Source of the DNA: Lytechinus pictus
Lineage: Eukaryota
Length of the DNA: 64,000 nt
Assembly: GCF_037042905.1 (NCBI RefSeq)
Contig: NC_087245.1
Coordinates: 23,376,001-23,440,000, forward strand
Reading direction: 5' to 3'
The notes below the pieces were generated by a model, which saw only the letters and a list, made by a program, of their open reading frames with translations, was not told the DNA's origin and made no database searches. How positions within the stretch are numbered: position 1 is the stretch's first letter; each line of letters begins with the position of its first letter. Both the position numbers and the translations under genes were made by a program. Shown here piece after piece: positions 1,780 through 64,000 of this stretch.

Positions 1780-1896
1780 AAGAAGATGTGGGGACATTTG
1801 GACCAAGTTATTTTGCTAAAATCATAATCATTACATTGCCATCTTCTATAGGGGGCTCTTTCTTCTCCATATTTTTGGGTTATATAGATCACTTAC

Positions 1897-2158
1897 CTCC
1901 ATCCCCGTACTCCATCACAATAGCTAGTATCCCGCCTCCACCGGCAACGAAAGCCTCACGGTACCGAATGATGTTCACGTGCCTCAGCCGTCCAAGAATA
2001 GCGACCTCGTTGACGGCTCTTTCTCTCTCCTTTTCGCCCATGCCGACGACGTTGATCTCTTTGATGACGTAAGGTCGACGACTTTCACGAGAGCGTACCA
2101 ACCAAGCTTTGCCAAAATTTCCCATCCCTAAGACCTTTTGGTATGAGTATTTCTCCAT
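1897..2158 (-). CDS. NIMA-related kinase (NEK1/3/5-like), first coding exon; no further exons recognised in the window
   Basis: MEKY start, GMGNFG loop, VIKEI, E in helix C, HVNIIRYREAF, IVMEY-DGG; ends at phase-1 donor G|GTAAGT (1896). Confidence 0.9.
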
Positions 2159-3736
2159 TATCTTTTTTAGGTTTGGTGTTTGGTTGTAGCTCTCGCGTGT
2201 GTAACTTATCCTGTTCCCTTTCAAAGCCTAGACCGGCTTTGCAAAAACGTCTGTCCTCTTTGAAGAGGAAGGATAGAGGTAACGTCGATTCGATTTCCCC
2301 ATGGAATTTACGCCCAATCCCTCCACCATCTATGAAGCAAGAGGACCTTTTCACTAGAGCGTGACAAATCCAGGTCAAAAGAAAGCCTAGCTGGATAATA
2401 ATCGTCTTTAAGCAGGTATACGCTTTCCACATGCAAGTTTCACGCGTCTGCAGTTTGTGAAATCGGCGTATTTGTCTTGTGCGGCTTTCCATAGTGATAG
2501 CGTCGAGCTGGAGGTTTGACGATTTCACGAAACGAGCCCCCAGTAATCCAACAAAAAAAACCCGGACTAAAACGTGACAAAGGACGCCATGTAGTGGTAA
2601 TGAATGAATAGTTTAACCTTTCAAAAGACAAACGTTGAAAAGATTGTAAGCATTCCAGTTTAAATAGATGACGCTTTTGATAACGAAATTGCACAATACT
2701 ATCCGACTGTAGCAACGTGACAACGTTGTTTTTTGTTTTGTTTTTGCTGCGTGCAAGAAAAGAGACACAATCGGCCGGCCTCGTCTGGAGTTATTCCACA
2801 GACCTGTCCAATGTTATTTGGGATAGCATAGTGCTTTAGACTTTCTTTATCCTTTTCTTAATCCACTAATGGAATGCCATTATGTGTACATGTTTCAGTG
2901 GCGCAATGAGCCCCCAAGAAAATTGAGGGGCCACAAAATGGCATGTCAGGTGCGGGGTATTTCTTTCAAATAGCGATCGAGAGGCGAAGCGAGTGAGCGG
3001 AAGCTTAAGTTGGCCATTTTAAAATAAAAATCTCAGTTTGTAAAAGATGTTGCCATAACATTCAACAGACATTATAATTTACACCATTTTAAATTTTCTT
3101 ACCTTCTGTTCCTCGTTTTTTTCTTGGTCGTAGACTTTTTTTTCATTTATATTTTATTCTATTTCAGTTCATTATATTCCATTTTATTTTTATTTTTTTC
3201 ATTTCATTTTTATAAGATTTGCCTAAATTTACATTAATTCTAATAATTTTAATACATTCTATTTCATTTTATTTCATCTCATTCTATTTATATATTAATT
3301 CATTTATTTATTCACCTCTTAAAGTTGATACCCACAATCAAACGTTGATTATCATGTAAAAGTTTATTTATTTGTTTATTTAGTTTGTTAAACTTACTTT
3401 ATTTTGTATTTATTTGGGGACCACCGTACCCCCATATGTATGGTAATGAACGTGATACTGATCAGTAAAGTTATTGCATGATGAAGCCATACTTTTTAAC
3501 AAGAGGATTACACAAGGTTTCCTAAAAATATCAGACCTTTACCCATTTATGCACGTAAATACAGATTTTTAACAGAATTAATTACGCATTCAAGAAATGT
3601 TATTTTCCCTTGTTCCCTTCGCTCGCTCGCAAATTGTCAGAAAAAAACATATATAAAAAAACTGTCTTGCCCCATATTATTTTTCCATATTACGCTACCA
3701 GTTACAAGTCTCGTGTATATATATTTAGTAATACAT

Positions 3737-5723: not shown

Positions 5724-7786
5724 CTCTTGGCTTGCTTCGCGAACGAAGATTTATAAAGGCAGTCCACGTCGACTGCAGGCACGCATGTGACTCACAAGGC
5801 CAATACGTGATAGACAGGCCCGGCCACAGCGGCCGCAGTCAAAAGTCACGTTTGGTGTGGCTGCTGAGGCTTCGCGATTCTTTCTGCGGCGACGTTTCTC
5901 CCTCAGGTGATCTTTTCGGGATTCCTCGAAAGAAGAGGCAGCCTGATGGACTATATGTCGCCAGCTAGCACGGTCAGCAGCCAGAGTAGACCACTGGCAA
6001 TGATCGATATGGCATGTACCGAGGGACTTCTTCAGGATGTCCTTGAAGCGTTTCTTTGGAGCCCCTCTGTCACGATTGCCAGTAGAAAGTTCGCCGTACA
6101 GGGCTATCTTGGGCAGGCGATGGTCTTCCATTCTTGAGATGTGTCCTGCCCAACGGAGCTGAGTCTTCAGCAGCATGGCCTCGATACTGGGGATCTCCGC
6201 CTGTTCAAGGACCTCAACATTTGTGACATAGTCGGTCCAGTGAATGTTGAGGATGATCCGGAGACAGCGCTGATGGAAACGCTCCAGGAGTCACATGTGG
6301 TGGCGGTAAGTTACCCACGACTCAGAACCGTACAGTAGGGTGGTGAGGACAACAGCTCTGTATACGCTGATCTTGGTGCCCCTTTTCAGATGCTTATTTC
6401 TCCAGACCCGCTTGTACAGTCTGCCGAAGGCACTGTTAGCTTTGGCCAGTCTGTTGTCTACTTCCCTGTCAATCTTGGCGTCTGAAGTAATTGTACATCC
6501 CAGGTAGGTAAACTGGTGAACGCTCTTCAACACAGTCTCGCCAATAGTGATGTGAGGAAGGCGGTACTCTTCCCGGGGTGCAGGTTGATGGAGGACTTCC
6601 GTCTTCTTCAAGCTGACTTCGAGTCCGAAGAGTTGAGCAGCCTCCGCAAAGCAGGATGTCAAGCACTGCAGGGCTCTTTCGGTATGGGCAACGAGGGCAG
6701 CATCATCGGCAAAGAGAAGGTCTCTAAATATTTGCTCACAAGTTTTTGTGTGGGCCTGCAGTCTCCTGAGATTGAATAGACTGCCATCGAGGCGGTAGCG
6801 GATGTAGACAGCCTCGTCTTCATCAAGACCTTCCATGGCCTGCTTGAGCATTACGCTGAAGAAGATACTGAACAGCGTCGGTGCAAGGACACAACCCTGT
6901 TTCACACCGTTTGTGATTGGGAAAGATTCGGAGTGATGGCTGTTTAACCTAACTTGGCCACGCTGGTTTTCATGCAGCTGGATGATCATACTGAGGAACC
7001 TTGGGGGACAACCGAGGCGTTCCAAGATTAGCCAGAGGCCCTTTCTGCTCACCGTGTCAAATGCCTTGGTTAGGTCGACAAACGTTATGTACAGTCCTTT
7101 ATTTTGTTCCCGGCATTTCTGTTGGAGCTGACGGAGGACGAAGACCATGTCTGTGGTACCTCGGTTTGCTCTGAAGCCACACTGGGTTTCTGGGAAGTGG
7201 TCTTCCGCGATGACAGGTACTAGCCTATTCAAGAGCACTCGGGCAAAGATTTTTCCTGCGATGGACAGTAGAGTGATACCCCTGTAGTTTGAGCAGTCAG
7301 ACCTTTCCCCCTTATTCTTGTATAAGGTAATGATGACTGCATCGCGGAGGTCTCCTGGTAGCTTGCCCTGTTCCCAACAACAGACAAGGAGTTCATGGAG
7401 CTTGTTGTGTAACACTGGTCCTCCACATTTCCATATCTCAGGTGGAATTCCATCAACTCCTGCTGCTTTGCCACTCTTCATCTGCTCAATGGCTTTTGTA
7501 AGTTCTTGCAGAGAGGGCGGTACATCCAGTTCCTCCTTGACTGACAGCTGGGGGATGCGGAGGGTTGCTGAGTCCTGGACAACCCGGTCAGCTCCAAAGA
7601 GTGCCTGGAAGTGCTCAGACCATCGGGTAAGGATAGATGTCTTGTCTTTGAGGAGTGTCAGTCCATCCGCACTGCGTAATGGACTCTGAGCCTGGTGTCT
7701 GGGGCCATAAACAGCCCTGATGGCTTCATAGAAGCTTCTGTAGTCACCAGCAGAAAAGTCACCAGCAGAAAAGTCACCAGCAGAAA
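5724..7786 (-). mobile_element. 5'-truncated RTE-clade (BovB-like) LINE with reverse transcriptase ORF
   Basis: NYRGITLL, FVDLTKAFD, GVKQGCVLAP, LFADD, YLG, LRWAGH, C-terminal CxxC...HxxxC; ORFs 6291-7811 and 5751-6176 are one frame separated by a single TGA at 6291-6293. Confidence 0.95.
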
Positions 7787-8140
7787 ATATAACGAAGCAG
7801 AGGATCAGCAATAGAATGCAGAATATTTTTCACGACTCTTTTTGTCATTTTGTAATGCCATCATAACAAGTCTTTTCTGCCTTTAAATTGGTTACAATCC
7901 TAATTAATTCTTGTCTATGAACTGAAGTAAGAACCATTGAACTATCATTTTGTTTATACAAAAGTCCTTAAAAGACTTTTCTACAGATATGATATTTTCA
8001 GCTAACTTTTGGCCAATTTCAAACATAGTTCCATCTACATATAATTTATTAACATCATTAAGCTTGTTACTTTTGTTAACTGCCCCATTTATGGTTTTCC
8101 AGGTTTTTTAAGGTCGTCAAATAATTGTAGTTTTTCTCCA
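7787..8140 (-). mobile_element. Decayed CR1/L2-clade LINE fragment (5' part of the element split by the RTE)
   Basis: VVKNILHSIADPLLRYI continues into YIYNCSL across the RTE insertion; outer boundary approximate. Confidence 0.7.
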
Positions 8141-10951: not shown

Positions 10952-11949
10952 TCAAACGACCGACGGGTCTTTAGGCCTACTTCTATTGTTGTCGCTTGAA
11001 TCAGGTTTGTTTGTACTGAATATGGATGATTTTTTGTTGATTTTTCCAGTAAAAAGTTCCTTTGTTGCGCGCCTGAACTGCGGATGCTGTGCGGCGTAGA
11101 TGAAAGGATTTAAACAGCTGTTGTAGAAACCGATGACCGTAAGAACCCGATGAAGTGGAGTACCGATATATTCCGACCACTCTATGAAGCCAACGATGAC
11201 GCCCAAGAAGGCCACCTGGTTAGGCAACCAACAAACGATGTAGATGATGATGATCTCTAACATGATTTTGAGCACGCGATTTCGAGCGACAACGTGGAAA
11301 GAGTTCGTGGAATTGTTATTCCCTCGGAAATTCTTCGACTGACGGTGAAGCTCGAGAGCGATCAGGGACTGCGTGATGAGCATTGTTGCAACAGGTACGA
11401 CGATCCGAAGACAGAACCAGTAGTAACCCATTGCTGCCAGTTCGTGACGGGAGGTCAGAGTCAGTGTGCAGAATCCATATGTTTCGTCAATCCCTGTGAC
11501 AAAGAAGGCAAAAAGAAGCGACAGGCAAGCGAGCAACCATATGAGGATGATGACGATGTTCACACGTCGGAAAGTCACGATACGACTGAACCTGAGAGGA
11601 TAGACAACGGCGATGTACCTCTCTACGGACATTGCCATTAGGATGTAGGAGGAAGCGGTGACAGGTAACCAGAGAGGAAAGTTCTGGTACATCACTATAC
11701 ACCAAAGCATTCCTTGCCATGAATGGGGTACGCGGATTGGGGTCGGATAAGGAACGATGGCAACTGATGTCAAGAGGTCAGCTACGGCCAGGCTTCCGAT
11801 GAGGATGTCGGTTGTTCGACCAGACGAACGACGGCTGAAAATGACCACGATTACCAATAGGTTACCAAGGATTCCTACAATGGCTGAGATGAGTTGGAGG
11901 ATGATGTCCCATTGCCACGATAGCGGTTCCCAAATCCATTCTGAATCAC
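10952..11949 (-). CDS. Rhodopsin-class GPCR (galanin/allatostatin/somatostatin-receptor-like), 7TM exon
   Basis: GN in TM1, LAVADLL, ERY, CWLP, NPFIY; acceptor TGCAG| at 11950 in phase 1; stop at 10952. Confidence 0.93.
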
Positions 11950-12662
11950 CTGCATTGTGAAAGACCAAAGATTATATTGTTTGGGCAGTATATCACAGAA
12001 AACAAATTAAACAGAAGTCGGAGTTATTAATTTATTTCTGAAGTTTGAAAAATTGTAAACCTACAAGGGTAGTTCATTGTTAGACTGTGAACAAATATGG
12101 CGTAAAATGGTGAGTGCGGTTGCTTTTTAAAAACTTGTGAGCTTTCATAGGCCTACTCATTTGGAGGTACTACGGGAGGCTTGAAACGGTGATACAGAAA
12201 AAGATACACAGAAAAATCAATACTTAGATTGGGAGGAGGAGCTGCGGTATGGAGGCAATTAAAAGATATTATCCCATTTATTGATATTTATTTTAAGAAA
12301 ATTATGCATGAGAACAATCTTGTAAAGATTAATGAAGAAACAATTTTGAACAAATTATAAAAAACAAGTCATGTAGGATCTGTATAAATAGGATGTGTAC
12401 ATGATTTGCAACTTTGCTGTTTAAACGCCATGCTTTCGCCTTTTATCTATCAATCTTAATATTAATTCTGATTTTAATGTTATTGAAATCATTCATTACT
12501 TGTATAGAACCTAAGTTACACTTTTATCTTTTATGTATATATTGTTACTTTATGTTAACAGGACCATGCTGAAAAACAGTCAATCTGAGCTTGTTATCCT
12601 GTATAAAGATATTTTAATAAATGAATAAAAATAATAAATAAATCTTCCAAGAATGCTGTTAC

Positions 12663-24000: not shown

Positions 24001-25205
24001 ACTGCCCCGCCCCGGACCTATGCAATGCGCATAGCACTGGCCAAAAAAAGTTCTACAACCAAGAACAAAAAAGAAAAGGAAAGGAAAGAAGATGTAAGAA
24101 ATGATGTTATTTTCTGAATAGTTTGTCAAAATCAATTCCAAAGTTAGATTCTCGTGAAAAGGTGATTTTTTTATCGCCCTCTTCACTCGCTCGGGACTTA
24201 TATCAAGCAACTTATTGCCGCGCGCGCCATGCTGTGCCCCTCTTTTTTGTACTTATCACGCATTGAGCTGCTTCGCCCTATAATGTTCGGGCACAACCAT
24301 AAAAAATCCTGTACATAACATTATATGACCGTGAATTTTTTGGCTCTTGCCCCCCCCCCCCCCCGACCCCTGTTATGCCCCTGGTTATCCATCTCTCTCC
24401 CCTATTTCTTCTTCAACTCCATTCATCGGTTCTTTTTGATATTTTTCAATCCATTCCCTCAATTTAATTTCTCCTTCTCATTCTATTTTTTTTCCGTTTT
24501 CCTCTAACCCCAGTCTCCTCCTCCCTCTTTGTCTTTTTCTCTTCTACTCCTAAGCTCTACAATACCGTATTTAAAAAGGGTATGCGTATGGGATAAGACT
24601 TTCTTTTGTGTAACTTTGGGGGCACCCCCTAAGGCTGCGTCCAGCGTTGGTAGGCAGCGGCGTAGCAGGGGTCGGTGGCCAGGGGGGGGGGGGGTCAAGA
24701 GCAAAAAATTTCCCGGTCATAGGAAGTTGCCCCCCCCCCCCCTCCGACGAAAACCTACACCTTTTTGCTGAAAATGTTATCAAATTTCACTTAAAATTAT
24801 GTAGCGTTCATTTTCATTTGTTAGCAATGCACAAGTTCTCTGTGGTACTTCTGATCTATATGACATATCACTTTGTGCCCCCATTTTCGGGTTTCAATAG
24901 AAGTATCAAGAAAATCCTATGCAAGACCATGGACCTATCATGGCAAAACCAAGGTTGACACTGAAAATTTGTGATCTAAAACTCCCTTCCTCTCGAGAAA
25001 GATGACCCTTGTGATGCCCCCCCCCCCTCATCCAGAATAGCTTCCGGCTCACCTGGTAGGGGCCCTAAGTCAGTTACCTAAAATTCTGGGGGGGGGGGAA
25101 GTAATATGGGCATCCTTTCTATGTCTTCACAAATCCTGTCATTGGTTTTCCCCCAACGAACGTAGAGGGCAGCAACACACATCAGGTTTACCCCTACTGC
25201 CTCTA

Positions 25206-25377
25206 ACTGGGCGTTGTGGCGTGCGCCTGTACTCCAAGCTATGTGGGGAAGTTACAAATTGATGCAGAGATTCGAGCCCTGGTCACGTCTTTTGGATGGT
25301 GACGTTAAAGGTCGGTCCCAGACGTAAATAATCATATCTGATTGATACACGTCTGACAAAACTCAATACACACACAC
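25206..25377 (+). mobile_element. SINE-like element with 7SL (SRP RNA Alu domain)-like head
   Basis: ACTGGGCGTTGTGGCGTGCGCCTGTACTCCAAGCTA matches the recalled human 7SL 5' end at 28/36; B-box-like GATTCGAGCCC 25269-25279; (CA)n tail. Confidence 0.65.
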
Positions 25378-25433
25378 CAATATCTCTGCTAATGACCCCA
25401 CCATGTGCTTTCTTCAGATTTGTACACACATAT

Positions 25434-25526
25434 CAGGGGCCACGAACGGTTTTCTAAGTTTTATGTTTTTGTACATGGTTTTGGAAAAAAGTGGGAGGGG
25501 GGCCCCTCCCGCTTCCGTGGCCCCTG
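25434..25526. mobile_element. Short CAGGGGCC-TIR MITE, copy 2 (internally deleted)
   Basis: CAGGGGCCACG...CGTGGCCCCTG; 5-bp TSD CATAT. Confidence 0.75.
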
Positions 25527-27134
25527 CATATTCCCTATCAGAAGCCCCCTCCCTCATGTTTTTCACCAATGAATTGAGAACTTGCAACTACTTTATTGCA
25601 GAAAACAAGATTACATCATTTTTCAAAGATCTACTAACCTTGAATTTTTCCGTATCCAAAATGTATATAAATGTAAATAAGATCTAAATGTGTGAAGCAG
25701 GTGAGCTAATTCCATCTGTCTGTAGAGATGTGTGTGTCATGAAAGAGTAAAATTATTACTGTACGCCAATGTGCCAAGTCAGTATCCCATAAAGAACGAC
25801 AAGATTCCACTACCCTTCAGAGTATAAGGTAGTCTTGCTATGCGGCAAATCCTAAAAATTCTAGCATTTTGTGAGAACCATGGTACAGGGATTTGACGCT
25901 CTACCCCCCCCCCCTCTCTTTCTCTCTATCCCTCTTACTGCAATCTCTAGTTCTCTACCCATCTGTCTTCTTCACAGTTCTCAGAGAAAGCAAATAGGTA
26001 TGATGATTTTCTTCAGTCAAAACTAGTGGAAGATTCAAGTACTACCACAAGGAGGGGGGGGGGCACATACTTAAAAAAGGGGAAAAGGGAAGAAGAAATG
26101 GTCAACACCATTCACTTTGAGGAATTCTCCCATTGAATTTTCAAAGATCTTTTTTAATTCCTCAAAAGATGGGAAGGCATGTGCCCCCTGCACCCCCCCC
26201 CCCCCACCACTTTGATCTGTGCCTAGCCAAAATTATGAGATCAATGGATTATGATGTCCACCTTACCCTGGCTCCTTATGGAACTTAAATGAGTTACACA
26301 ATATAATAACAACAAAGGGAACAGTACATAATTGATCATTAGTTTACATTTTATACACATCTCAGTGAATCTGTAAATTCCAAATAGAAGTCACATAATC
26401 AGTTTCATGGCAATACAAAGTTAACAAACATCTTCTTTCCAATATAGAATACTGGTACATCAATATAAAGTTAAGAACTGTATCCTTCTTGATGTATTAT
26501 GAAGGCAAAGATGAGATATGGATCCACTATGGATAAAAATGATATAGAGACCCATGTCTAATTCAATATTGCCTAATGGTTTGCTATATTACCCCCTCTA
26601 CAATGTTACACAGAGTGCTATCCATCTTAAAACATTCTCCCAAAATTATCATTGGATATAGGACAAGAAATCAAGAACAACAAACAGCAATAGCACTAAA
26701 TATTAAATGTACGGTAGAAAAGTCTCCAAAAGCCTGGAAGTGATTATCATGTACAAGAGGTCAAAATACTGATACCAAACTTTCTGAATGACATTTATGT
26801 ATGCATTGTATCATTCGATAATTGGTCACACAAATAGTTAAAATTGACAGATGAAGAAAATATATTTAATGTTATTTCCAAGCCAAAAATGGCTGTGAAT
26901 CTAATGCATATGGAAACTGATATTTATTATATAAAATAGCCAAAAGACCCTCTAAGGATTTTATTCAATGTCCTAGATATCTTCACTCAAAAGAATACCA
27001 ATGCTTCATATATAGTGCTTTCCATATAAAGCCAAGCTCATTCAAGATTATGGAATAACTCTTGTTGGGAAGGCTTTGTCAAGTACATCAAATCTGATTT
27101 TATATGTATAGGATTATGGGAGTACAATAAGCTA

Positions 27135-27347
27135 TCACTGAGGAAGGCTAAGTAACGTCTGTTGACCTTGGGGTAGGTAGGAGACATTACGTGATCTTGA
27201 CATCTGATAGGCGATGTCCTCAGCGGCTTCCAGCTTCCTTAGCTCAATGAGACCGTTGCCTGCCTTGGCAAAGGCTTTGGAGAGGAGGGAGGCAGCGATG
27301 GAGTCTCCCTCTGCGGTGGTAATGGCAGCCTGCTTCTGGTGCTCAGC
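27135..27347 (-). CDS. PHB1: Prohibitin 1, coding exon 6 (last)
   Basis: [16 protein letters not shown]...[27 protein letters not shown]...LSLPQ*; 213 nt, AG acceptor. Confidence 0.96.
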
Positions 27348-27803
27348 CTATGTCAGAGAAATGACATCAAGTTGGGAAGTGAAAGCTTCACACAGAATAA
27401 AGATATGACTGAGACTGAAAAAATATAGTACAACAAAATTATGACTCATCTTTCTTTGGGAATCTTTGTCTATGCACTTCAGGGTATGGGTACAGCAAGC
27501 AATAATGCACCCAGGGTAGCTTAGGAGTGGCACAGACAAGCAAACTGGAAGATGTTGTTTACTGGTCTACAAAGGCTGGTTCTTTAGTATTCAATGTTTG
27601 GTTGAGATCCTTGGAGGATAGTTCCCCATTAAACATAGGTGTCATGAACATTTATCATCTGCCAACTTTCTGTGGTTTTGATTGGCTGAGAAGAACTTAT
27701 GTCTGACAGTTACTATAGTAACTCGGATAATGACAGCTTGTCAGTGCTTGCGAACCTACCCTGAATTAATTATATTACAATCAGACAAGTATAGACCTCT
27801 TAC

Positions 27804-27899
27804 CTTCTCTACAAGGAACCTCGCCCTCTCTGCTTCTTGCTGAGCAACCTGCTTCATCTCAACAGCCTGGGTGAACTCACGACCAAACGTCAGATGGGT
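27804..27899 (-). CDS. PHB1: Prohibitin 1, coding exon 5
   Basis: [32 protein letters not shown]; 96 nt, AG/GT bounded. Confidence 0.96.
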
Positions 27900-28642
27900 C
27901 TGAAGAAGGAAAAATATCACTGTTACATGCATCTTCTCAATATTTCATATAGCACTGTTAGAACTAAAATACGAACCTGCATTCATCAATGACCTGCCAC
28001 AAGACAAAATAATGTGGCAGATTAAGCTAAAAAAGTGTAGTGCCTCTGGCAGTCTCGCCTGCATAACGCAATCCAATATATTGCTGAGTTTGAAAACAAT
28101 TAAGATGAATAGCTCTTCACCAAAAACACTATCCATAATGAAATACTAGGTCCATTGACCTTAACTAACCTTTAACCTTAATCATGTGACCTAAAACTCG
28201 GGCAGGATGTTCAGTGATACTTTATCAATCTTCTGTCAAAGTTTCATGAACTAGATCTATATACTTGGATGACATTTAAAAAACTTAGCCTTTCAATGTT
28301 GAAACCGCCGCCGCAGAAAAAGCGGCGCCTAAGACTCTTACTTGATTTTAGCAGAATGAGAGTGAAATATGTTTTTTAGAAAATAAGGTAAGAAAACTCT
28401 ACATACTTTTTACACAATATCTTGTTTCTGAGCTATTTCCAGTCTAACAACAAAATGTAAAAGATTGAACAGCATTGTCCCAGTAAATGCTGAGGGTACA
28501 TTGATTGAGTGGGTACATTGAGAGGGTACATCCTCCCGCCAATCCAGCCATTCTAGGGCTACATACAGAATGCAGAATTGACAATGGAAATTGTGCAAAC
28601 TTGTAAAACTACTTTTAAAGATCCAAACTATGCACTACTTAC

Positions 28643-28759
28643 CAATGAGATATCATCACAAACGATTCCAAACTGGTTTGCTCTTTCGACAAGTTCCTCA
28701 TTGACTCTCTGTGATACGACTTCTCTCTGTGTAATCAGCTCTCCAGCATCAAACTGAGC
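28643..28759 (-). CDS. PHB1: Prohibitin 1, coding exon 4
   Basis: [16 protein letters not shown]...[10 protein letters not shown]; 117 nt, AG/GT bounded. Confidence 0.96.
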
Positions 28760-29282
28760 CTGAAAATATGAAAACAGTTATGATACGGTACTATGATACT
28801 ATTTTGAAACTTAACCCTGGTTAAGATGTCAATGTTGATACCACAACATAGACAAAATTCATTCAATGTTTTTGATGCCGTTGCCGTCAGTCTGAAAAGC
28901 GACGTCTATACAATGTAGGTTCGCTCTGCTATGCCTGCAGAGACAAAGCGATTTGGTTAAACAAAAAGTTTTCCTTAGTTGTGCATGGTAAAGCATCATT
29001 TATAATTGATATCAAGGACATTTAAAAAATACAGTTACGTTAGGTATCATTAATTATGCAGCTTTAGCTGTATATGCGCTTCAGGGGAGTGCATTATAAA
29101 TTTGAGAGGATGATAGATGGGCCCCAGAAACATAGTAAGAAACAAGAGGAAGGGAGAAAGATCAAGAGAAAATTTCTTGCGTATGAGAATACATGTAGCA
29201 ACACTTCTCTTGCCAAATAAGCAGGTCAGAGAATGTGTGCCGCAAAACTAAATCTCCCTTCTATCTCATCAGGGTCACTTAC

Positions 29283-29425
29283 CACAACTGCTTTAAGAAC
29301 TTCATTGGTGATAGACGGGAGAACTCTGTCATCGTAGTCTTCACCAAGGTTGACGTAGAGCTTGGGAAGTTCAGCAACTATTGGCCGGAACAGGATACGA
29401 AGAGTGATGTTCACATTCTGCAGAT
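29283..29425 (-). CDS. PHB1: Prohibitin 1, coding exon 3
   Basis: [15 protein letters not shown]...[19 protein letters not shown]; 143 nt, AG/GT bounded. Confidence 0.96.
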
Positions 29426-29917
29426 CTACAGCATAGAGAAAAATGAAATGAGCACTAACAAAGCCATGCATATATCCGATAAAATTACAAATGGATTTTC
29501 CATTCAAACATTTCTTATATTGTCTGTTCCTGAAGCCTACAAATTCCTGAAAATTTGTACCAATTTGTACACACACGAGACAAGGCAAGATTTTTACATT
29601 AGACAAGGCACGTTGACGTTCCTGACATTGAGTAATCCTGTGCACCCGATAAAGCTTGTACGCTTATTTTGGTGTCCAAGCCATTTTGCTCCATGTTCAG
29701 ACCCAGAAGATGTGCTGCTTGTAATGGGGGTTTCTTCCAATACGCGCACACATTTCAGCAAATGAAATAAAACTAAAAATTATGAGTTCTCACAATTATA
29801 CACGTTATGCACACCATTTAATCAGTCTCAGATGAATACATTTTCTACTCTTCATATCTAGACACAAGCTTTAAACCAGGGAAGGTATAGGCTACCCATT
29901 AAAGAACCAACACTCAC

Positions 29918-30079
29918 CTTTACTACCAGTAGTGACAGGTACATTTCTTGGTCTACTCCTACAGTCATAGATGATAGGTCTCTGGACAAGGGGGATGAGA
30001 AAATGTGTTCCCTCTCCCATAACATAATCCTTCACTCCTGCAAATCGGTCAAAGATGACAGCTCTGTGACCAGCATCGA
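29918..30079 (-). CDS. PHB1: Prohibitin 1, coding exon 2
   Basis: [13 protein letters not shown]...GEGTHFLIP...[14 protein letters not shown]; 162 nt, AG/GT bounded. Confidence 0.96.
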
Positions 30080-30459
30080 CTGCAAAGAAGGGGAACGTAA
30101 GGAAATGTGTTAACATACAATTACAGCATGGCTAAAATTCAGCCTAAATGTGCATTCAAAGGTAAATATCTTAATTTAATATATTTTCTTGTCAAGTTGG
30201 ATGTAATTTTTGGGCATAATTGTGATAAAGTCCCCAAATCAAAAATGGGTATTATTAGAATCAGACCTAACAGAATGCATGAAAATCACTTCCTTTCTCC
30301 GGAACACAGCCCCAACTCTCGCACAGCTCTATAGCTTGCGAAATGATAACACACACACATATAACACACTCTGTACTACACTTGGGTTCTCTCCCTATTT
30401 GTGGTCGTGATACAGGAGAAAGACTTTTCATTACTTTCGCTCCCTTGATTGTGACATAC

Positions 30460-31840
30460 TGCTTCTTCAAGAAACTCACTCTGGTAGTTATGATGAGAGA
30501 TTGAGGCAATCTCAGTGGGGTGATCATGCCTTTTTTGCTTCCTTTATTTCTAATAGCCATGGTGTAGCAATTCTTATTTATAGAAAATCTATAAATCTGA
30601 AGGTGAACTGTCTCTATAGAGATCCAAATGGATATTTTATCTCGAATTCGGAATTAAATTGAAAAGAATTCAGCAAGCTATAGATTGCTGGCGTATGAGA
30701 AATCTTTCTCTTTATAACTATACTGAATGTGGCTTGAAAATGATTGATCCTTTAACTTTTGCTCATGCTAAAAAAATGGTGCGGGTGAAAAATATTCTTG
30801 ATGTAAATTATATAGCCCCATGGAAATGCATTGAATTTTCTTCTTTTTTTAAAGAAAAATTCAATGATGATGTTTGGTGGAATTCTTTGCTCCAGAAAGT
30901 CACTTAGTAATATTCAACTTGCTGAATCTCTTTATGCTTGGTATCTATATAGAGAGGAAGCTACTGTAGAATTTTTTGGTCTTAAATATTCAGAATAAGT
31001 GCTTGTCAATGTCTTTGGTTAAGTAGGTCTAAATCCTTTTTTTCGAATCATGGTTCGATAGAAACATTATTACTATTTCTGACTTATTCAACCCTCCTTT
31101 TCCAGGCCATAAACTATTTGAAGAACTAGTTTTAGATTTTGATATTCCTGTTGGAGATTGCAAGGAAATTTATCTTTTTTTATTAAAAATATACCTGGAA
31201 AATGGATTAAGGATTTTGATGTTGATATAGTTGGAGTTGATGAAACTATAGTCCAAAAGCTTTTTAAGCACAAAGTCCCAAAGAATGCGTATATTACTCT
31301 ACTTGGCTCTGATGTTCCCAACAAGACATACTCTATTTGGTGTGATAATGTACCTGTACCTATTACTTTGAACTGGGGAAAAGGTACACACTTCTAACTT
31401 TTCTTGTGCTATTACTTTAAGATTTTCCATAAAGCTATCGCTCTAAATGAGTTTCTTCATAAGATTAAAAGAAAAGATTATTCTGAATTGCTCATTGTGT
31501 GATACCAGAGATGAAACATTGAGTTCATTTATTTTGCGAATGTGATATTAAAGGTAACTCCAATCTTGCAAGACGTTTTGGATGTAATCTCTCAGAAATG
31601 TGAAAATTCTATTTATTTAACTAATTTTGAAAAATTACTTGGTATTTGTAGTGATAATTTTTTTATGTATTCGTTTTTGCTTTTAAAATATTACATTTAC
31701 ACTTGTTAAGTTTAAAAACAACCTCCCCAATTTCAATGCATTTAAATGCATTGTCAAGAAACAGAGATAAATTGAATATTTGTTAGCCCCAAAAAGAAAC
31801 AAATTCCCTACTAACTTCAAGAAATGGCGTTTTGATTTGA
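30460..31840 (+). mobile_element. Decayed, internally deleted Tx1/L1-like LINE in PHB1 intron 1
   Basis: Endonuclease remnants LQETH, HG..VAIL, DPNG near 30465-30640; C-terminal zinc-knuckle remnant CSLCD..DET..HLFCEC near 31490-31545; no RT core seen. Confidence 0.65.
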
Positions 31841-32589
31841 TTTTCCCTGGCTCTTCTTTTTGCTATCTACATATAGTCTAGAATTCACTTCATCGCTCTC
31901 GCTTACTCTCTCCTCTCCTCTCTCATTCTGCATTTGTTGTCTGCTTTCGTTTTTTATCATTATTTTTTTTGGTTAAATACATGAATCATTTGTTCCTATT
32001 ATATCAGGTTTTGTTGGATATATTTACATGTATACTGAGAGAAAAACTTCCATTTTTCAGAATACTCCATGATCCTAGTGGAGTAACTGCCATACGTGAC
32101 AAAAGCAATAATAATTTTAGCAGGAAAATGCACGATACCAAATTAAAGGAAATAGGTCAAGAAAGAGGGAGGGAGAAAGGAATAGAAGAGGAAAGCAGAG
32201 AGAAATAAAAAAAAAAAGGGCAGGAAAAGAAAGAAGAGAGAGAAAATTGTAATAAGAGGAAATGGGAGGGGAGTTAAATTAAGTAGGATAAAGGAAAGAA
32301 AAGAAGTAAATGGGTGTCGATAAAGAGAAATAAACAAAAGTAGGTCAAATGAAAAGAGAAAGAGGAAAAATGGATAGAGACGTTAATTCAAACTTAAAAA
32401 AAGAAGGGAGAAGAAAAAACTAGAGGAGAAAGAAAGAATGAAGGGTAAAGAAGAAAACTAGAACACAATAAACATGATGAGGGAAAAAGCGCAAAAGATA
32501 ACTGGGAAGTGGGGGGGGGTGCGAGAATGAATAAAGAATGACACAGAAAAATTCAACTCCAAATTATGAACAAGAGATCTAGACTAAGG

Positions 32590-33380
32590 AAACAATGATG
32601 TATGTGAGTAAAGTAATGATAACAACAATAATGATGGGGAAAATAATGAAGAATAATAACAATAATGATGATAACGATAATAACAGCAATGATGGGGATA
32701 ATGATACAAAAGAATAATAACAATAAAGATAATAATAATAACGATAAAGATTAATAAAATGATAAATAAACATGATAATATTAATAAGATGATATTATTA
32801 ATAATAATAAAGGTTAAAGATGATGATAATACGAACAATCTTTGAATTAGTCTACAGTGATTTTATTGGATGGGGGCACACTTACCCTTTGACACTCCCA
32901 CCTTAATAATTTAGGTTAATAATAATAGTAATGGTAATAATAGCTCTAGGATAATAACAATAATAATGATAATAATAAATAATAACAAATGATTATAATA
33001 ACAATGATGATAAAATTGATAATGATAATAATTATAATAACACCCAAACATTTTGAATGAGTCTACTGTGTTTTAATTCGAAGGAATTACATGTAAATAA
33101 AAACAAGGAATGGAATGGATGAACGGAAGGCCAGGAGCACACTTTTCAATAATTAATAAAACAATAATAATGATAATAATAATAATTATAATGAAAATTC
33201 AATAATGATAATGATAATGATGATGATAGAGAATAATAATAAAGAATGATAGAAATAATAATAATATAATGATACATTAATAATCATAATGATGATAATA
33301 GCAATGATAATAAATAATGATAATAATACTGTACCCAAATGTTTTGAATGAGTCTACAGTGATTTAATTTGAAGGGGCAC
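32590..33380. repeat. (TAA/TGA)n low-complexity array with three copies of a TTTGAAT(G/T)AGTCTAC(A/T)GTG core
   Basis: Cores at ~32842, 33052 and 33343, separated by TAA-rich runs. Confidence 0.8.
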
Positions 33381-33817
33381 ACTTTTTCTGGTGAGACCCC
33401 CCCCCCCCCCGAAGTTTGTCTTCTTCTTTCTCGATCATTCCTTGTTGTCACATTGGGAAACTGTCCCCATCCCGTTGCCGACCGAGCACGCTGTAGCATC
33501 ACAAGTGTAATGTACCGTTAGAGCTATCCCCACTGCGTGCAAAAACAAACTGTGTATCCCATGGTGAGGGGACTGTATCACAGTATAGCTACTGTTGAAA
33601 CTGTCCCCACTGCCGTGAAAATCAAACTTGATTTCCCGTAGAGTTGGGACTGTATCATGACCAAGCTAATGGTATGTCGACCAAGGCTTCATGGAGAGTA
33701 AGCCTACAGTACGTCAGTAAATGACTTTTACTCTCCAGAAGCCTCCAGGCTAGCCTGCACGAACATCACTTGAGTTGAGGTAGCCGAGCCCGACGAAGTC
33801 ACTCCAGCTCCACTCAG

Positions 33818-35520
33818 GGGCCCGTTTCTCAACACCTGGACAAGAAGTCATATCTTTATCCACCAACCACGGAGTTAGCTCCAATCTTACTAAACCTGTT
33901 TCACGAAAGGCTTCCTAACTAAAATAGCTTGATATCGATACTATCGGTAAAAAGAACAGACGAGACGTAGCCTTAGTCACAAAATAATAAAAAAATAATA
34001 ATTTTCAAAAGAACAATTACAAAATTGCAAATATTTTGATGAATTGGGAAATACATCTTTTCAAAATAATAGCAGAGGTACATTGTAAATTATACATCAT
34101 ACATACTTATACCATGAAGATTGGAACATTCAATTACTGAAAAAATGAAATTATGAATACATGTAATTCATTTCATGAATAAAAAATCACATGCGGACGT
34201 TGAGATGGGTACCCCCGGGATATCAAATTTTGATAGTTTACGAAAGTAAACCATGATAATGGTTTTCTTTGTATAATGATGATTATACAGCTTTTTTTAT
34301 GATACCATCATCAAAATATATCATACCGAAACATACGATTTGACAAATTCTATGCATAGATATTAGAGATATAATTTATCCAAATGTTATTAGAGGTCTG
34401 AAAACGACAAATACGAGTTCAGACTTTTCAGTTATGGATAGCCTGACTTTAACACTGACGTGGTAGAATCTTTATTTCACAATGAATGGTTTTGTGGCGT
34501 TTTTAATACCAACAGTTTTTATAGTTTCTTTGTATTATACAATTATCATTGAATACATTATCCCACATTCCCACTTGTTTTGTGATGTAATTTCAAGCTC
34601 TATGATTGTTTACGTAAGATTATAATTTTGGCGTTATCCTGGTTTAAAGGGCCTGGCAACTGACAAATCATGGGGAAATTGAATCAATACGAAATCTGCA
34701 AAAGGCCAATTGACTTGCATAATATAATCTGTCCGTCATGAGCGCCTGTCGGTCTAATGCGAAAAAATTCGGACAGCACACGAATTTGACCGATGCGAGG
34801 GTTATTTACTTCGGGTCGTCGCAGTTCTAGCTTCCAACAATCCCAATTCCTAGACTCATAGCACTTTAGCAGGTCTCTTGATTGCTACATGTAAAGCAAA
34901 ATGAATAACCTCTGTGGAGTTACATTATTATATGTTTCAAAGTGAAAACATGCAGTTTACTTCTGGTTGGTTAGTCTACTATCATGACTATTGCTCTCCT
35001 AAGATTAGACCTCCCAGACACGCCGGCGTCTATTACGTAACACCCCAGGCATGCAGCCGAGCGAAAGACTTGAATCCCTTCTCTGTTTTTTAGATTAGCC
35101 TTGATTGATTTCCCCATGATTTGCTTTAAGTCACCACTCCATTCACTGCCATGACTGCCATTCATTTCGTCAGCGGCGGTGACTTCTTTCCTCTCCCATT
35201 GACTTTGTACACACACGAGAAGAGAAGTGACTTATTTCAGGATAAGGCCATAATTTTCAAATTTCTAGGCACTTTGTCTACCCACGTGATCGTGATGTCA
35301 TTAAGTCTAACTCTAACTTAAGTCAAGAAAGAAGTTGACACTGACACTGTGACAGGTTCGGAGATGTCATAAAATCTTACTCTATCTTAGTGAGGTTGTT
35401 GTTGTACCCGATCTTGGCAAAGAGGGCTTTGTGAAACGGTTAGCGGACAAATAGCTCACTATCTCCGATTTTAATAGTCAAGAAGTTAGACTTATGACGG
35501 TGTTGTCGAGAAACGGGCCC
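33818..35520. mobile_element. 1.7-kb non-autonomous PIF/Harbinger element in PHB1 intron 1
   Basis: TIR GGGCCCGTTTCTC (13 bp perfect, extends with one gap); 3-bp TSD CAG at 33815-33817 and 35521-35523. Confidence 0.8.
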
Positions 35521-35673
35521 CAGCTCACGTCAGAGTCACCATGTCCATGACTCCATGACCATGCAATGTATGCTCACTGACTCACACACTACACAGTAAC
35601 ACAATTCGCAACCAAGCGAGACTCAACATGTTCACACTCACTCAAAACATAATCTCATCATAGATTTCCTCAC

Positions 35674-35770
35674 CATTATATAAGGCCGAATTTGCAATGC
35701 CTCCTACAACTGCAACACCAATACCAATACTTCCTAGCCTGGAGAAAAGTTGATTCAAACCTGCTGCCAT
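35674..35770 (-). CDS. PHB1: Prohibitin 1, coding exon 1
   Basis: MAAGLNQLFSRLGSIGIGVAVVGGIANSALYN; phase-1 donor G|GTGAG; six exons total 828 nt = 275 aa plus stop. Confidence 0.95.
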
Positions 35771-38825: not shown

Positions 38826-38980
38826 CAGGGGCCGCGGAACGGTTTTCAAAGTGGGGGGGGGGGGGGCTGACCATGCAAAAAATCACAATCATATGGTAAT
38901 TTTTACGTTTTTGTACACGGTTTTGGAAAAAAGTGGGGGGGGGCTGAAGCCCCCCCCCCCCCCCGCTTCCGCGGCCCCTG
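38826..38980. mobile_element. Short CAGGGGCC-TIR MITE, copy 3
   Basis: 14-bp perfect TIR CAGGGGCCGCGGAA; flanks share GTGTG. Confidence 0.8.
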
Positions 38981-52791: not shown

Positions 52792-53448
52792 AACAAGTGG
52801 AATGCCTCTGGCCGTGTCACCTGCATCACACGATTCAATATAGCAGCAGTGCTGATTTTGAAAACTACTATAACTCGCACAAGATGTTCAGTGATACTTG
52901 GTTACTCTAATTTCCACGTGTTATGAACTAGACCAATACACTTAGGGATATGATGGCAATTCAACAAATACCCCCAACGTGGCCAAAGTTCTTTGACCTT
53001 ACATGACCTTTGACCTTGATCATGTGACCTGAAACTCGCACAGGATGTTCAGTGATACTTGATTAGTCTTATGTCCAAGTTTCAAGAGTCAGATCCATCA
53101 ACTTTCAAAGTTATGATGGTAATTCAATAGATTACCCCCATTATGGCCAAAGTTCATTGACCTTTGACCTTGGTCATGTGACCTAAAATGTGCACAGGAT
53201 GTTCAGTGATACTTGATTACTCTTACGTCCAAGTTTTATGAACTAGACCAACACACTTTCAAATTTATGGCTGTAATTCAACAAATACCCCAATTTGGCC
53301 AAAGTTCATTGACCCTAAATGACCTTTGACCTTGGTCATGTGACATGAAAGTCACGCATGATGTTCAGTAATACTTGATTAACCTTATGGCCAAGTTTCA
53401 TGAAAAGCGGCGCCTATAGTCTCACTCTGCTATGCAGGTGAGACATAA
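52792..53448. mobile_element. Helentron/HINE-like non-autonomous element with internal ~130-150-bp tandem repeats
   Basis: Subterminal IRs 52814-52826 and 53432-53444 (12/13), terminal hairpin GTCTCAC...GTGAGAC, four GATGTTCAGT(G/A)ATACTTG units; relatives at ~28035-28335 and ~28790-28945. Confidence 0.6.
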
Positions 53449-54553: not shown

Positions 54554-54800
54554 GCCCCTCTTGTGTTGGCTCAGTTGGTAGAGCGTCCGTCTCACAACCG
54601 GGAGGTAGGGTTCAAACCCCTGCCGCGTCAGACCAAAGATGTTAAAAGATAGTAGTTGCTGCTACCCTGTTTGGTGTTCAACGATTAAAGGGATAGAGCC
54701 ACGATCTGGCGCTGCACAGCAGCTGCCCGGTCCACGATCAATTGGGCAAAGCAAATTTTTGGAGTATTTCATTTCATGTCTATTGCAACAATAAAATATG
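54554..54800 (+). mobile_element. tRNA-derived SINE in LIG4 last intron
   Basis: A box TGGCTCAGTTGG 54567-54578, B box GGTTCAAACC 54609-54618, ~170-nt non-tRNA body ending AATAAAA. Confidence 0.8.
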
Positions 54801-63149: not shown

Positions 63150-64000
63150 TTTGTATAGCGCAGCTTTTATATGGATATATTCGGCTGTGCTTGTTCAGAG
63201 CTCTTTTTACTTATGTCCACACAGCACATTTTCTTAACTAAAGAGATATGTTTTTAATTTTGATTTGAAGAGAGCCAAGGATGGAGAGCTTCTTATATCA
63301 ATTGGCAGGCTATTCCATAGTTTGGGGGCAGCAAGTGCAAATGCACGATAACCAAGTGTGACTTTTGTTTTGTAAAATGGGATCTGAAACAATAATTTAT
63401 CTGTGGAACTTCGCAGGCTTCGACATTGTGATTGGGTTTTAAGTTTGAGTAATTCTGTAATGTAATGTGGGGCTTGACCGATTAATGATTTATATACAAT
63501 TAACAGAATATTGAATGAAATTCTTTGACGTACAAGCAACCAGTGGAGTTCTCTCAGAAGAGGTGTAGTGGAACTGAACTTTGGGACATGGTAGATAAGT
63601 CTTGCACATGAATTTTTTACTCTTTGTAACTTAGAAATAAGACTATCAGGCATTCCAAACAACAAACCATTACAGTAGTCAAGCTTACTTGTAATCAGAG
63701 CATGTGCCACCAGTTTGATACTTTCTTGATCAAAGAATTTGCGAATGCGCCGAAGGTTATAGAGGAGATAATATGTTGATTTGCATACATTCGTGACTTA
63801 GGTTTCCATATTGAGGTTTGTATCAAAATAAACTCCTAAATTCCTTGCAGTATCAGAGGGTTTGACATTGGATACTCTAATTTTATACAGTTGATATTAA
63901 TTTTAGAGATCTGCTGTGAAGTGCCAATGAGCAAAAATTCACTTTTGCTATCATTTAATTTCAGATTATTATTGAGCATCCAGCTACAAATAAAAATGAT
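63150..64000 (-). mobile_element. L2-clade LINE 3' fragment in LIG4 intron
   Basis: LNDSKSEFL, ARNLGV.FD, HALITSKLDYCN, LHWL, APKLWNSLP, FKSKLKTYLF; followed by a poly(T) tract on the minus strand. Confidence 0.9.

What the first reader, a model, noticed from the sequence alone, without database searches (positions are those of the whole stretch)
25206..25377. 7SL/Alu-domain-headed SINE-like element in an echinoderm
Seen: the first 36 nt match the human 7SL 5' end (from memory, GCCGGGCGCGGTGGCGCGTGCCTGTAGTCCCAGCTA) at 28 positions. The differences preserve the fold: GGCGU/GCGCC helix, UGU turn, second helix ACU-CCA pairing with UGG..AGU (compensatory relative to AGU-CCC/GGG..GCU), and loop-loop GUGGC/GCUAU. 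No S domain follows. Instead there is a B-box-like GATTCGAGCCC at about +64, an unrelated body and a (CA)n tail. Known: 7SL-derived SINEs (Alu, B1) are mainly from primates, rodents and relatives, are rare elsewhere, and the Alu fold binds SRP9/14. Inference: an independently evolved Alu-like retroposon family. No TSD was found and the true 5' edge may lie further upstream.
Basis: partly seen in the sequence, partly recalled or inferred. Interest (0 to 1): 0.75.

Follow-up and report, generated by a model that had tools for sequence, protein, structure and literature searches.

The report
Sea urchin SINE with 7SL head
This 170-base stretch is one recent copy of a many-copy jumping element in a sea-urchin-type genome whose front end is the 47-base piece of signal-recognition-particle (7SL) RNA that drives Alu jumping in human cells, grafted onto an older tRNA-type element, a design so far described only in a few vertebrates.

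Summary
Confirmed as a mobile SINE with a 7SL-derived head, but not built like Alu. Window 25206-25252 matches Rfam Metazoa_SRP positions 1-44 (26.6 bits, E 1.9e-5 in 221 nt). Sequencing data put the family's 5' edge at 25204-25206, show hundreds of different 3' flanks behind an (AC)n tail, and give an empty site in two DNA runs, without target duplication. The body is not unrelated: three metagenome loci share it at 86-96% under other heads, two tRNA-like, and it starts like the Deu domain. So the 5' Alu domain replaced the front of a tRNA head and the tRNA B box stayed. That piece is the 46-nt minimum shown sufficient for SRP9/14 binding and Alu retrotransposition (PMC11760393). Untested: host 7SL gene, Pol III transcription, SRP9/14 binding, partner LINE, Repbase/Dfam. 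This scan reported the same family before, on other pieces of this genome.

The parts
25204..25205 (+). Two bases in front of the 7SL-like start; part of the insertion; could extend the closing helix with 25253-25254; family start or untemplated bases, not settled
   Evidence: Absent from the empty allele (table 5c). Of 24 listed long pieces, 3 start at 25204, 6 at 25205, 1 at 25206 (table 8).
25206..25252 (+). 7SL-derived head: the 5' Alu domain (three-way junction, two hairpins, loop-loop pairing)
   Evidence: Rfam RF00017 model 1-44, 26.6 bits, E 1.9e-5. First 30 bases 27/30 identical to the start of hagfish SINE1-1_EBu, 28/30 with the family allele at 25232 (by eye). Only 13-15 of 47 identical to the heads of L001-L003.
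25210..25219 (+). Pol III box A, inside the 7SL part
   Evidence: 8 of 10 identical to the human 7SL box A printed in PMC7245038; function inferred.
25253..25268 (+). Linker of unknown origin, shared by the family
   Evidence: Depth in X1 is 0.97 million at 25254 against 1.01 million at 25286; 4-5 of 16 identity to L001-L003; not matched by the SRP model.
25269..25281 (+). tRNA T-arm remnant with box B; this copy has a private G-to-A change at 25270
   Evidence: Ungapped register with the B boxes of L001-L003 directly before the shared body, though identity is only 5-8 of 13; family allele.
25282..25319 (+). Body start, resembling the first ~38 nt of the Deu domain
   Evidence: 29 of 38 columns against the AmnSINE1_HS Deu start printed in the supplement of PMC7245038 (by eye); positions 25294-25323 invariant in window and L001-L003.
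25319..25367 (+). 3' part with a 13-pair stem-loop (25319-25355), the likely LINE recognition site
   Evidence: Consensus fold of window, L001, L002: 13 pairs, 10 unchanged, no two-sided change; role inferred from SINE/LINE 3' ends.
25368..25377 (+). (AC)n tail; 25374-25377 are target bases that match the tail
   Evidence: Loose ends behind 25361-25367 are (AC)n of variable length, then unlike flanks (table 7); the empty allele keeps the four bases (table 5c).
25198..25401 (.). Insertion site: the empty allele joins 25203 to 25374; no TSD
   Evidence: One contig each in X1 and X3 (depth 36.9 and 27.2; two studies), collinear with three unique segments of the window (tables 5 and 5c).

Best explanation
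A young non-autonomous retrotransposon (SINE) family with a chimeric head. [quoted passage not shown] RNA polymerase III would read it from the 7SL box A and the retained tRNA box B, about 50 bases apart (inferred). A LINE that reads 3' stem-loops and short-repeat tails (not poly(A)-type L1; CR1/L2, RTE or I group, not identified) copies it into new sites, primed where the tail pairs with target ACAC (inferred from one site). The 47-base head folds as the 5' Alu domain and probably binds SRP9/14, which brings the RNA to ribosomes making the LINE protein, as for Alu (inferred; about even odds). Shown: multi-copy family, ends, empty site, shared body under other heads, SRP-model match at the exact 5' end.
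For: SRP model position 1 falls within 2 bases of the family's 5' edge found independently from sequencing data (summed depth 11,806 in the bin before 25206, 316,117 in the next, run X1). 29 of 36 identities have a chance of 2e-5 to 2e-3 in the window. The sister heads give no SRP match. Two double changes keep the closing helix paired. In X8, 63% of depth has C at 25242, the Rfam letter, which turns a loop-loop G.U into G-C. Body 73/85, 79/85 and 82/85 identical in L001-L003. Empty site in two studies. A 46-nt 5' Alu domain binds SRP9/14 and supports 73-86% of Alu retrotransposition but lacks a B box (PMC11760393): this family supplies exactly that missing box. 3' microhomology and blunt joining are described for an L2-clade LINE (PMC2666801).
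Against: The host's own 7SL gene was not available (no genome), so 'copied from 7SL' rests on Rfam and hagfish. The Rfam score is below the gathering cut-off and the 1.5-kb scan missed it. The head folds no better than shuffles; the closing helix has pair probability about 0.3 and helix 4 0.2-0.3; 25215/25222 is U.U. The compensated pairs may simply be inherited from the host 7SL, so they show origin, not selection in the SINE. RNA reads lie on both strands (1224 and 1143 mates), 89% run on into other sequence, and no common start was seen: no sign of a Pol III transcript in this library. No partner LINE end in the window. For L2-clade ZfL2-2, 20 of 25 insertions had a TSD; this site has none.
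Confidence: 0.78

Rival explanations
1. Same family and origin, but the 7SL piece serves only as a box A donor; the Alu fold is a passenger and SRP9/14 plays no part in mobilisation.
For: A U.U pair in helix 3, a loop 4 three bases longer than Rfam's, and a variant lacking 2 bases at 25240 (91 of 345 reads in X21, 1.5% of depth in X1) show tolerance for change. The same body spreads under other heads (in X8 about 68% of depth at 25291 seems to belong to a sister family).
Against: The kept piece ends exactly at the closing helix of the domain, about 30 bases beyond box A, the length found minimal in PMC11760393. Head positions are nearly fixed in the DNA runs X1 and X3 (table 3), though the family is young.
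Confidence: 0.35
2. A longer, diverged 7SL derivative: linker and B box also come from 7SL, as in Alu and the hagfish element.
For: The spacing from the closing helix to the box-B-like word is close to that of a similar word in the hagfish element (about 17-18 nt; by eye).
Against: The SRP model stops at position 44. The box sits in ungapped register with tRNA-type B boxes of L001-L003 and keeps three T-stem pairs (with the family G).
Confidence: 0.08
3. A tRNA-derived head that drifted into a chance likeness with 7SL.
For: GC-rich tRNA heads such as SINE2-2_SP begin with a similar run; the Rfam score is below the cut-off.
Against: The likeness runs on for 20 bases beyond box A and includes the closing helix; ARAGORN and the Rfam tRNA model see nothing here; chance 2e-5 to 2e-3 before counting the match of the start position.
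Confidence: 0.03
4. Not a family with a master copy but repeated 7SL/SINE chimeric retrocopies, or a 7SL pseudogene beside a truncated SINE.
For: Such chimeras are known for small RNAs (PMC7245038).
Against: The 16-base linker, which is neither SRP-like nor shared with the sister SINEs, is carried by nearly all body-bearing depth in X1; long pieces span head to tail in all three DNA runs (table 8).
Confidence: 0.03

Closest known systems
SINE1-1_EBu of the hagfish Eptatretus burgeri (Kojima 2020, PMC7245038; parts 1-3 of 4 of the text and supplement passages read)
   Same: 7SL head grafted onto an older tRNA-derived SINE; non-L1 partner; short-repeat tail; first 30 bases 27-28/30 identical.
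   Different: Hagfish keeps 96 nt of the 7SL 5' part plus its 3' end, uses the 7SL B box, has bipartite RTE parts and ~17-bp TSDs. Here: 47 nt only, tRNA B box, Deu-like start, no TSD at the one site seen, and an invertebrate host.
Alu / FLAM / B1 and shrew-mole Urop (PMC13023118; Background section and passages read)
   Same: 5' Alu domain at the head with box A.
   Different: They consist of 7SL 5' and 3' parts around a ~183-nt deletion, end in poly(A) and use L1. None of that holds here.
Tree-shrew Tu types II/III, left unit (as described in PMC13023118)
   Same: One reading gives that unit a dual 7SL and tRNA origin, the nearest precedent for a mixed head.
   Different: Mammalian, multimeric, descended from the supraprimate SINE1; not compared by sequence here.
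Deu-SINEs with a 5S-plus-partial-tRNA head, AmnSINE1 type (PMC4758252 passage; Deu alignment)
   Same: A second Pol III RNA fused in front of a partly lost tRNA head; the body starts like the Deu domain.
   Different: The donor is 7SL, not 5S; only ~38 nt resemble Deu; box B of the tRNA is kept.
Engineered SA46/AY46 minimal Alu domain (Moldovan et al., PMC11760393; abstract and sections 16-18 read)
   Same: Same stretch of 7SL (nt 1-46).
   Different: Laboratory construct with an outside promoter, poly(A) and human L1; here a natural element with its own promoter and another LINE.

Membership tests
SINE (SINEBase definition, PMC3531059) | Short (<1 kb) interspersed repeat | tested here: met
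   170 nt, sharp ends, unlike flanks.
SINE (SINEBase definition, PMC3531059) | [quoted passage not shown] | tested here: met
   In organisms A and B: 123 (X1) and 182 (X8) contigs leave the element at a single 3' position into unlike flanks; depth ratio gives a floor of 400-1,000. The window's own genome could not be counted; one copy in 64 kb.
SINE (SINEBase definition, PMC3531059) | At least 60% identity to tRNA, 5S or 7SL over at least 60 nt (or shown Pol III transcription) | tested here: not met
   75% but over 44 model positions only; the tRNA remnant is 13 nt. The formal length rule fails because the head is a two-part chimera.
SINE (general) | Mobility: filled and empty site | tested here: met
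   Empty allele in X1 and X3.
SINE (general) | Pol III transcription | tested here: inconclusive
   Reads of one cDNA library are embedded in longer RNAs on both strands.
SINE (general) | 3' end shared with a partner LINE | tested here: inconclusive
   No match in the window; no genome or repeat library at hand.
SINE1 (head derived from 7SL RNA, PMC7245038) | 5' part originates from 7SL RNA | tested here: met
   Rfam RF00017 1-44 at the family's 5' edge.
SINE1 (head derived from 7SL RNA, PMC7245038) | Head closer to the host's 7SL gene than to other species' 7SL | not testable with these tools
   No genome; pattern scans for the head found nothing.
Alu/B1/Urop/hagfish type | 7SL 5' and 3' parts joined across an S-domain deletion; box B from 7SL | tested here: not met
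   No match beyond model position 44; box B in tRNA register.
Alu/B1/Urop type | Poly(A) tail and L1-type TSD | tested here: not met
   (AC)n tail, no TSD at the one empty site.
Alu-domain RNAs | SRP9/14 binding | not testable with these tools
   Pairs of the fold can form; binding needs an experiment.
Deu-SINE superfamily | Full Deu domain (about 130-140 nt in the alignment) | tested here: not met
   Only the first ~38 nt resemble it (29/38 by eye); the whole body is 85 nt.
Published sea-urchin SINE families (SINE2-1_SP to SINE2-8_SP, SURF1) | tRNA head and family consensus | tested here: inconclusive
   Listed as tRNA-headed; heads of SINE2-1_SP and -2_SP differ; the other consensus sequences were not seen.

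The most novel reading that the evidence does not exclude
The first 7SL-headed SINE outside vertebrates, and a natural version of the minimal-Alu experiment: selection kept only the 46-47-base SRP9/14-binding domain and fused it to a tRNA B box, so ribosome targeting through SRP9/14 is a portable module that helps a SINE use a structure-reading, non-L1 LINE and let it displace its tRNA-headed sisters in one sea-urchin lineage.
Probability: 0.35. Interest if true: 0.85.

Novelty: new variant of a known kind. Interest (0 to 1): 0.68.

Why it matters
A February 2026 paper lists 7SL-derived SINEs only from supraprimates, one hagfish and the shrew mole, all built by the same central deletion (PMC13023118). 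An echinoderm family would be a fourth origin, the first in an invertebrate, and built another way. It makes a standing question testable: is the Alu domain kept as a promoter or as a handle for SRP9/14 and the ribosome? Here the same body and tail occur under a 7SL head and under tRNA heads, so the head's effect can be measured alone. The insertions are also polymorphic markers.

Tried and rejected
Rfam scans of 1.5 kb and of the whole window did not list the SRP family; only the 221-nt scan did. The mir-1268 match is not read as a microRNA: 30 of 83 bits needed; that family is Alu-derived (recalled). SNORD101 and other weak body matches (E 0.26 or worse) are taken as chance. Free-energy folding gives no support. 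Exact scans for the head in viral, metagenome and GTDB contigs gave 0 loci; for the body 0 in GTDB and viral contigs and 3 in metagenomes. The tRNA nature of the sister heads is by motif: Rfam gave only a tRNA-like mascRNA match at E 1.5 for L002 and nothing for L003. A first copy estimate of 2-3 x 10^4 from summed contig depth was dropped, since overlapping contigs can inflate it up to 31-fold. The lower depth over the head is not read as 5' truncation, because the tool drops human-like records. A 4-base TSD candidate (25201/25384) does not fit the empty site. The element as prohibitin 3' UTR: no RNA reads on the flanks. The Atlas search with the GPCR gave no clear taxon. Sequence look-ups among earlier findings were blank.

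Full report
Setting. The window is animal DNA, 31-49% GC, with a prohibitin-like gene on the minus strand whose last exon ends at 27138, 1.76 kb from the element (gene name recalled from the translation). One holder of the stretch is labelled 'echinoderm metagenome', and 54559-54650 resembles the head of the sea-urchin family SINE2-1_SP, so a sea urchin is likely; the species was not determined. No genome is held. The window has one copy of the element.

The head. A 221-nt Rfam scan matches 25206-25252 to Metazoa_SRP positions 1-44 with 26.6 bits and E 1.9e-5, about 0.006 scaled to 64 kb. This is under the gathering score of 70, and the 1.5-kb and whole-window scans did not list it. By eye, 29 of the first 36 and 33 of 44 model positions are identical; 29 of 36 has a chance of 2e-5 to 2e-3 in the window. 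The first 30 bases are 27/30 identical to the start of hagfish SINE1-1_EBu. Of the 14 Rfam pairs, 12 can form; 25215/25222 is U.U, and 25216/25221 is unpaired in Rfam's consensus too. The closing helix is A-U, C-G, U-A where Rfam has G-C, C-G, C-G: two double changes. The five loop-loop pairs can form. Against this, the head folds no better than shuffles, and only helix 3 has high pair probability.

The family. I laid 4 of the 24 runs listed on 24966-25565 at 82% likeness: X1 and X3 (organism A, contigs), X8 (organism B, contigs), X21 (organism A, RNA reads). Summed depth is 0.15-1.7 million over 25206-25365 and 0-200 in the unique flanks. In X1 it goes from 11,806 to 316,117 at 25206. In X8, 40 contigs leave the element before 25205 into unlike sequence; 10 of 24 listed long pieces start at 25204-25206. 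So the family's 5' edge coincides with 7SL position 1. At the 3' end, 123 contigs (X1) and 182 (X8) continue from 25366-25367 into (AC)n and then unlike flanks. The depth ratio to the single orthologous contig is 24,000-30,000, but overlapping contigs can inflate it 31-fold, which leaves a floor of 400-1,000; earlier notes on this genome say 1,000-1,600 (not checked). This copy differs from the majority at three places, 25232, 25270 and 25293 (96-99% of depth in X1), so it is young.

Mobility. One contig each in X1 and X3, from two studies, joins 25203 to 25374 and is collinear with three unique segments (tables 5, 5c). The insertion is thus 25204-25373, 170 bases, with no TSD, and the target's first four bases match the tail. 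The same allele lacks 40 bases just upstream and a 98-base inverted-repeat element downstream, so it is a diverged allele or a sister species. A precise deletion is not excluded by one site but is unlikely. Microhomology at the 3' junction is the rule for the L2-clade ZfL2-2 (about 80%), blunt joining is a described class, but most of its insertions had TSDs (PMC2666801, passages).

The body. A 26-base body pattern found three metagenome loci. Over 25282-25366 they are 73/85, 79/85 and 82/85 identical to the window; over the head only 13-15 of 47. L002 has a tRNA-type box A and box B, L003 a box A and a box-B-like word, L001 a box-B-like word (by eye; Rfam adds only a mascRNA match at E 1.5 for L002). 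All four boxes stand in ungapped register before the body. None of the three has an SRP match. The first 38 body columns resemble the Deu-domain start of AmnSINE1 (29/38 by eye). A 13-pair stem-loop precedes the tail, without two-sided changes among three sequences. In X8 the depth rises only after box B and 68% of it carries another base at 25291, against 0.1% in X1: organism B probably holds an abundant sister family with another head (inferred; the depths are not linked).

How it likely works. A tRNA-headed SINE had its front replaced by 7SL nt 1-47. Box A now comes from 7SL and box B from the tRNA T arm. The stem-loop and (AC)n tail would be read by a partner LINE, not found here. Moldovan et al. 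showed that nt 1-46 bind SRP9/14 and give 73-86% of Alu retrotransposition, and noted that such RNAs cannot go on for lack of a B box (PMC11760393, sections 16-18). This family keeps that piece and has a B box, which is the main reason to think the fold is used. It is inference: the RNA library shows both strands (1224 and 1143 mates), 89% of reads run on into other sequence and no common start stands out, which is what copies inside longer transcripts give. I put 0.78 on the family and its origin, and about even odds on the SRP9/14 step.

What is known. Kojima 2020 (PMC7245038; parts 1-3 of 4, supplement passages) calls the hagfish element the first SINE1 outside Euarchontoglires. Kosushkin et al. 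2026 (PMC13023118; Background and passages) add the shrew mole and name no invertebrate; 'urchin' and 'echinoderm' do not occur in that text. Sea-urchin SINEs in the passages read are tRNA-headed (PMC4758252, PMC3747384, PMC4824008). PMC3531059, PMC5786205 and PMC9734144 were seen as passages only. Searches listed no report of an echinoderm 7SL SINE; one search was too broad to count for much (30 of 7,696 listed) and one search showed 15 of 23, none opened. Repbase and Dfam were out of reach, the SINEBase supplements could not be read, and one supplement of PMC4758252 was not searched; any of these could hold the family. By membership it is a SINE1 in Kojima's broad sense, fails SINEBase's 60-nt rule on length, and is not of the Alu/B1/Urop/hagfish build.

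Verdict. A real, young, mobile family and a new variant of a known kind. The scan has reported it before on other pieces of this genome (AI notes, of which I checked the head, body and mobility but not the host 7SL or the count). This window adds an empty site from independent runs, sister elements under other heads, and presence in a second organism label. Interest 0.68.

Noticed in passing
window 25429-25526: A 98-base element with inverted ends (MITE-like), multi-copy (depth up to 159,000 in X1), absent from the same allele that lacks the SINE; related to 38897-38980.
   Followed up: partly
window 25146-25190: A short fragment of another high-copy repeat just upstream (depth 128,000-163,000 in X1, under 900 in X8); the organism A allele lacks 25158-25197.
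   Followed up: no
window 54559-54790: tRNA-like head (Rfam tRNA 33.6 bits) resembling SINE2-1_SP, a MetaSINE of sea urchins.
   Followed up: partly
window 25270 (family variants): A variant with a 7-base duplication at box B: 112 of 987 reads in X21 and apparently many long pieces in all DNA runs; a possible older subfamily.
   Followed up: no
L002 about 276-640: An inverted-repeat element appears to be inserted inside box A of the tRNA head of this SINE copy.
   Followed up: partly
L001-L003, body: The 85-base body is 86-96% conserved across four different heads and tails ((AC)n, (CCAA)n); it may be an undescribed short SINE domain. Hosts of the loci unknown.
   Followed up: partly
window 27138-35760, minus strand: Prohibitin-like gene in at least six exons.
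   Followed up: no
window 5751-7829 (-), 10952-11971 (-), 1889-2227 (-), 63234-63797 (-): A reverse-transcriptase (RTE-like, by recall) LINE remnant, a single-exon 7tm_1 GPCR, a kinase exon and another LINE fragment.
   Followed up: no
window 52875-53404 and 28150-28266: A 154-base tandem repeat (3.3 copies) with a dispersed relative.
   Followed up: no
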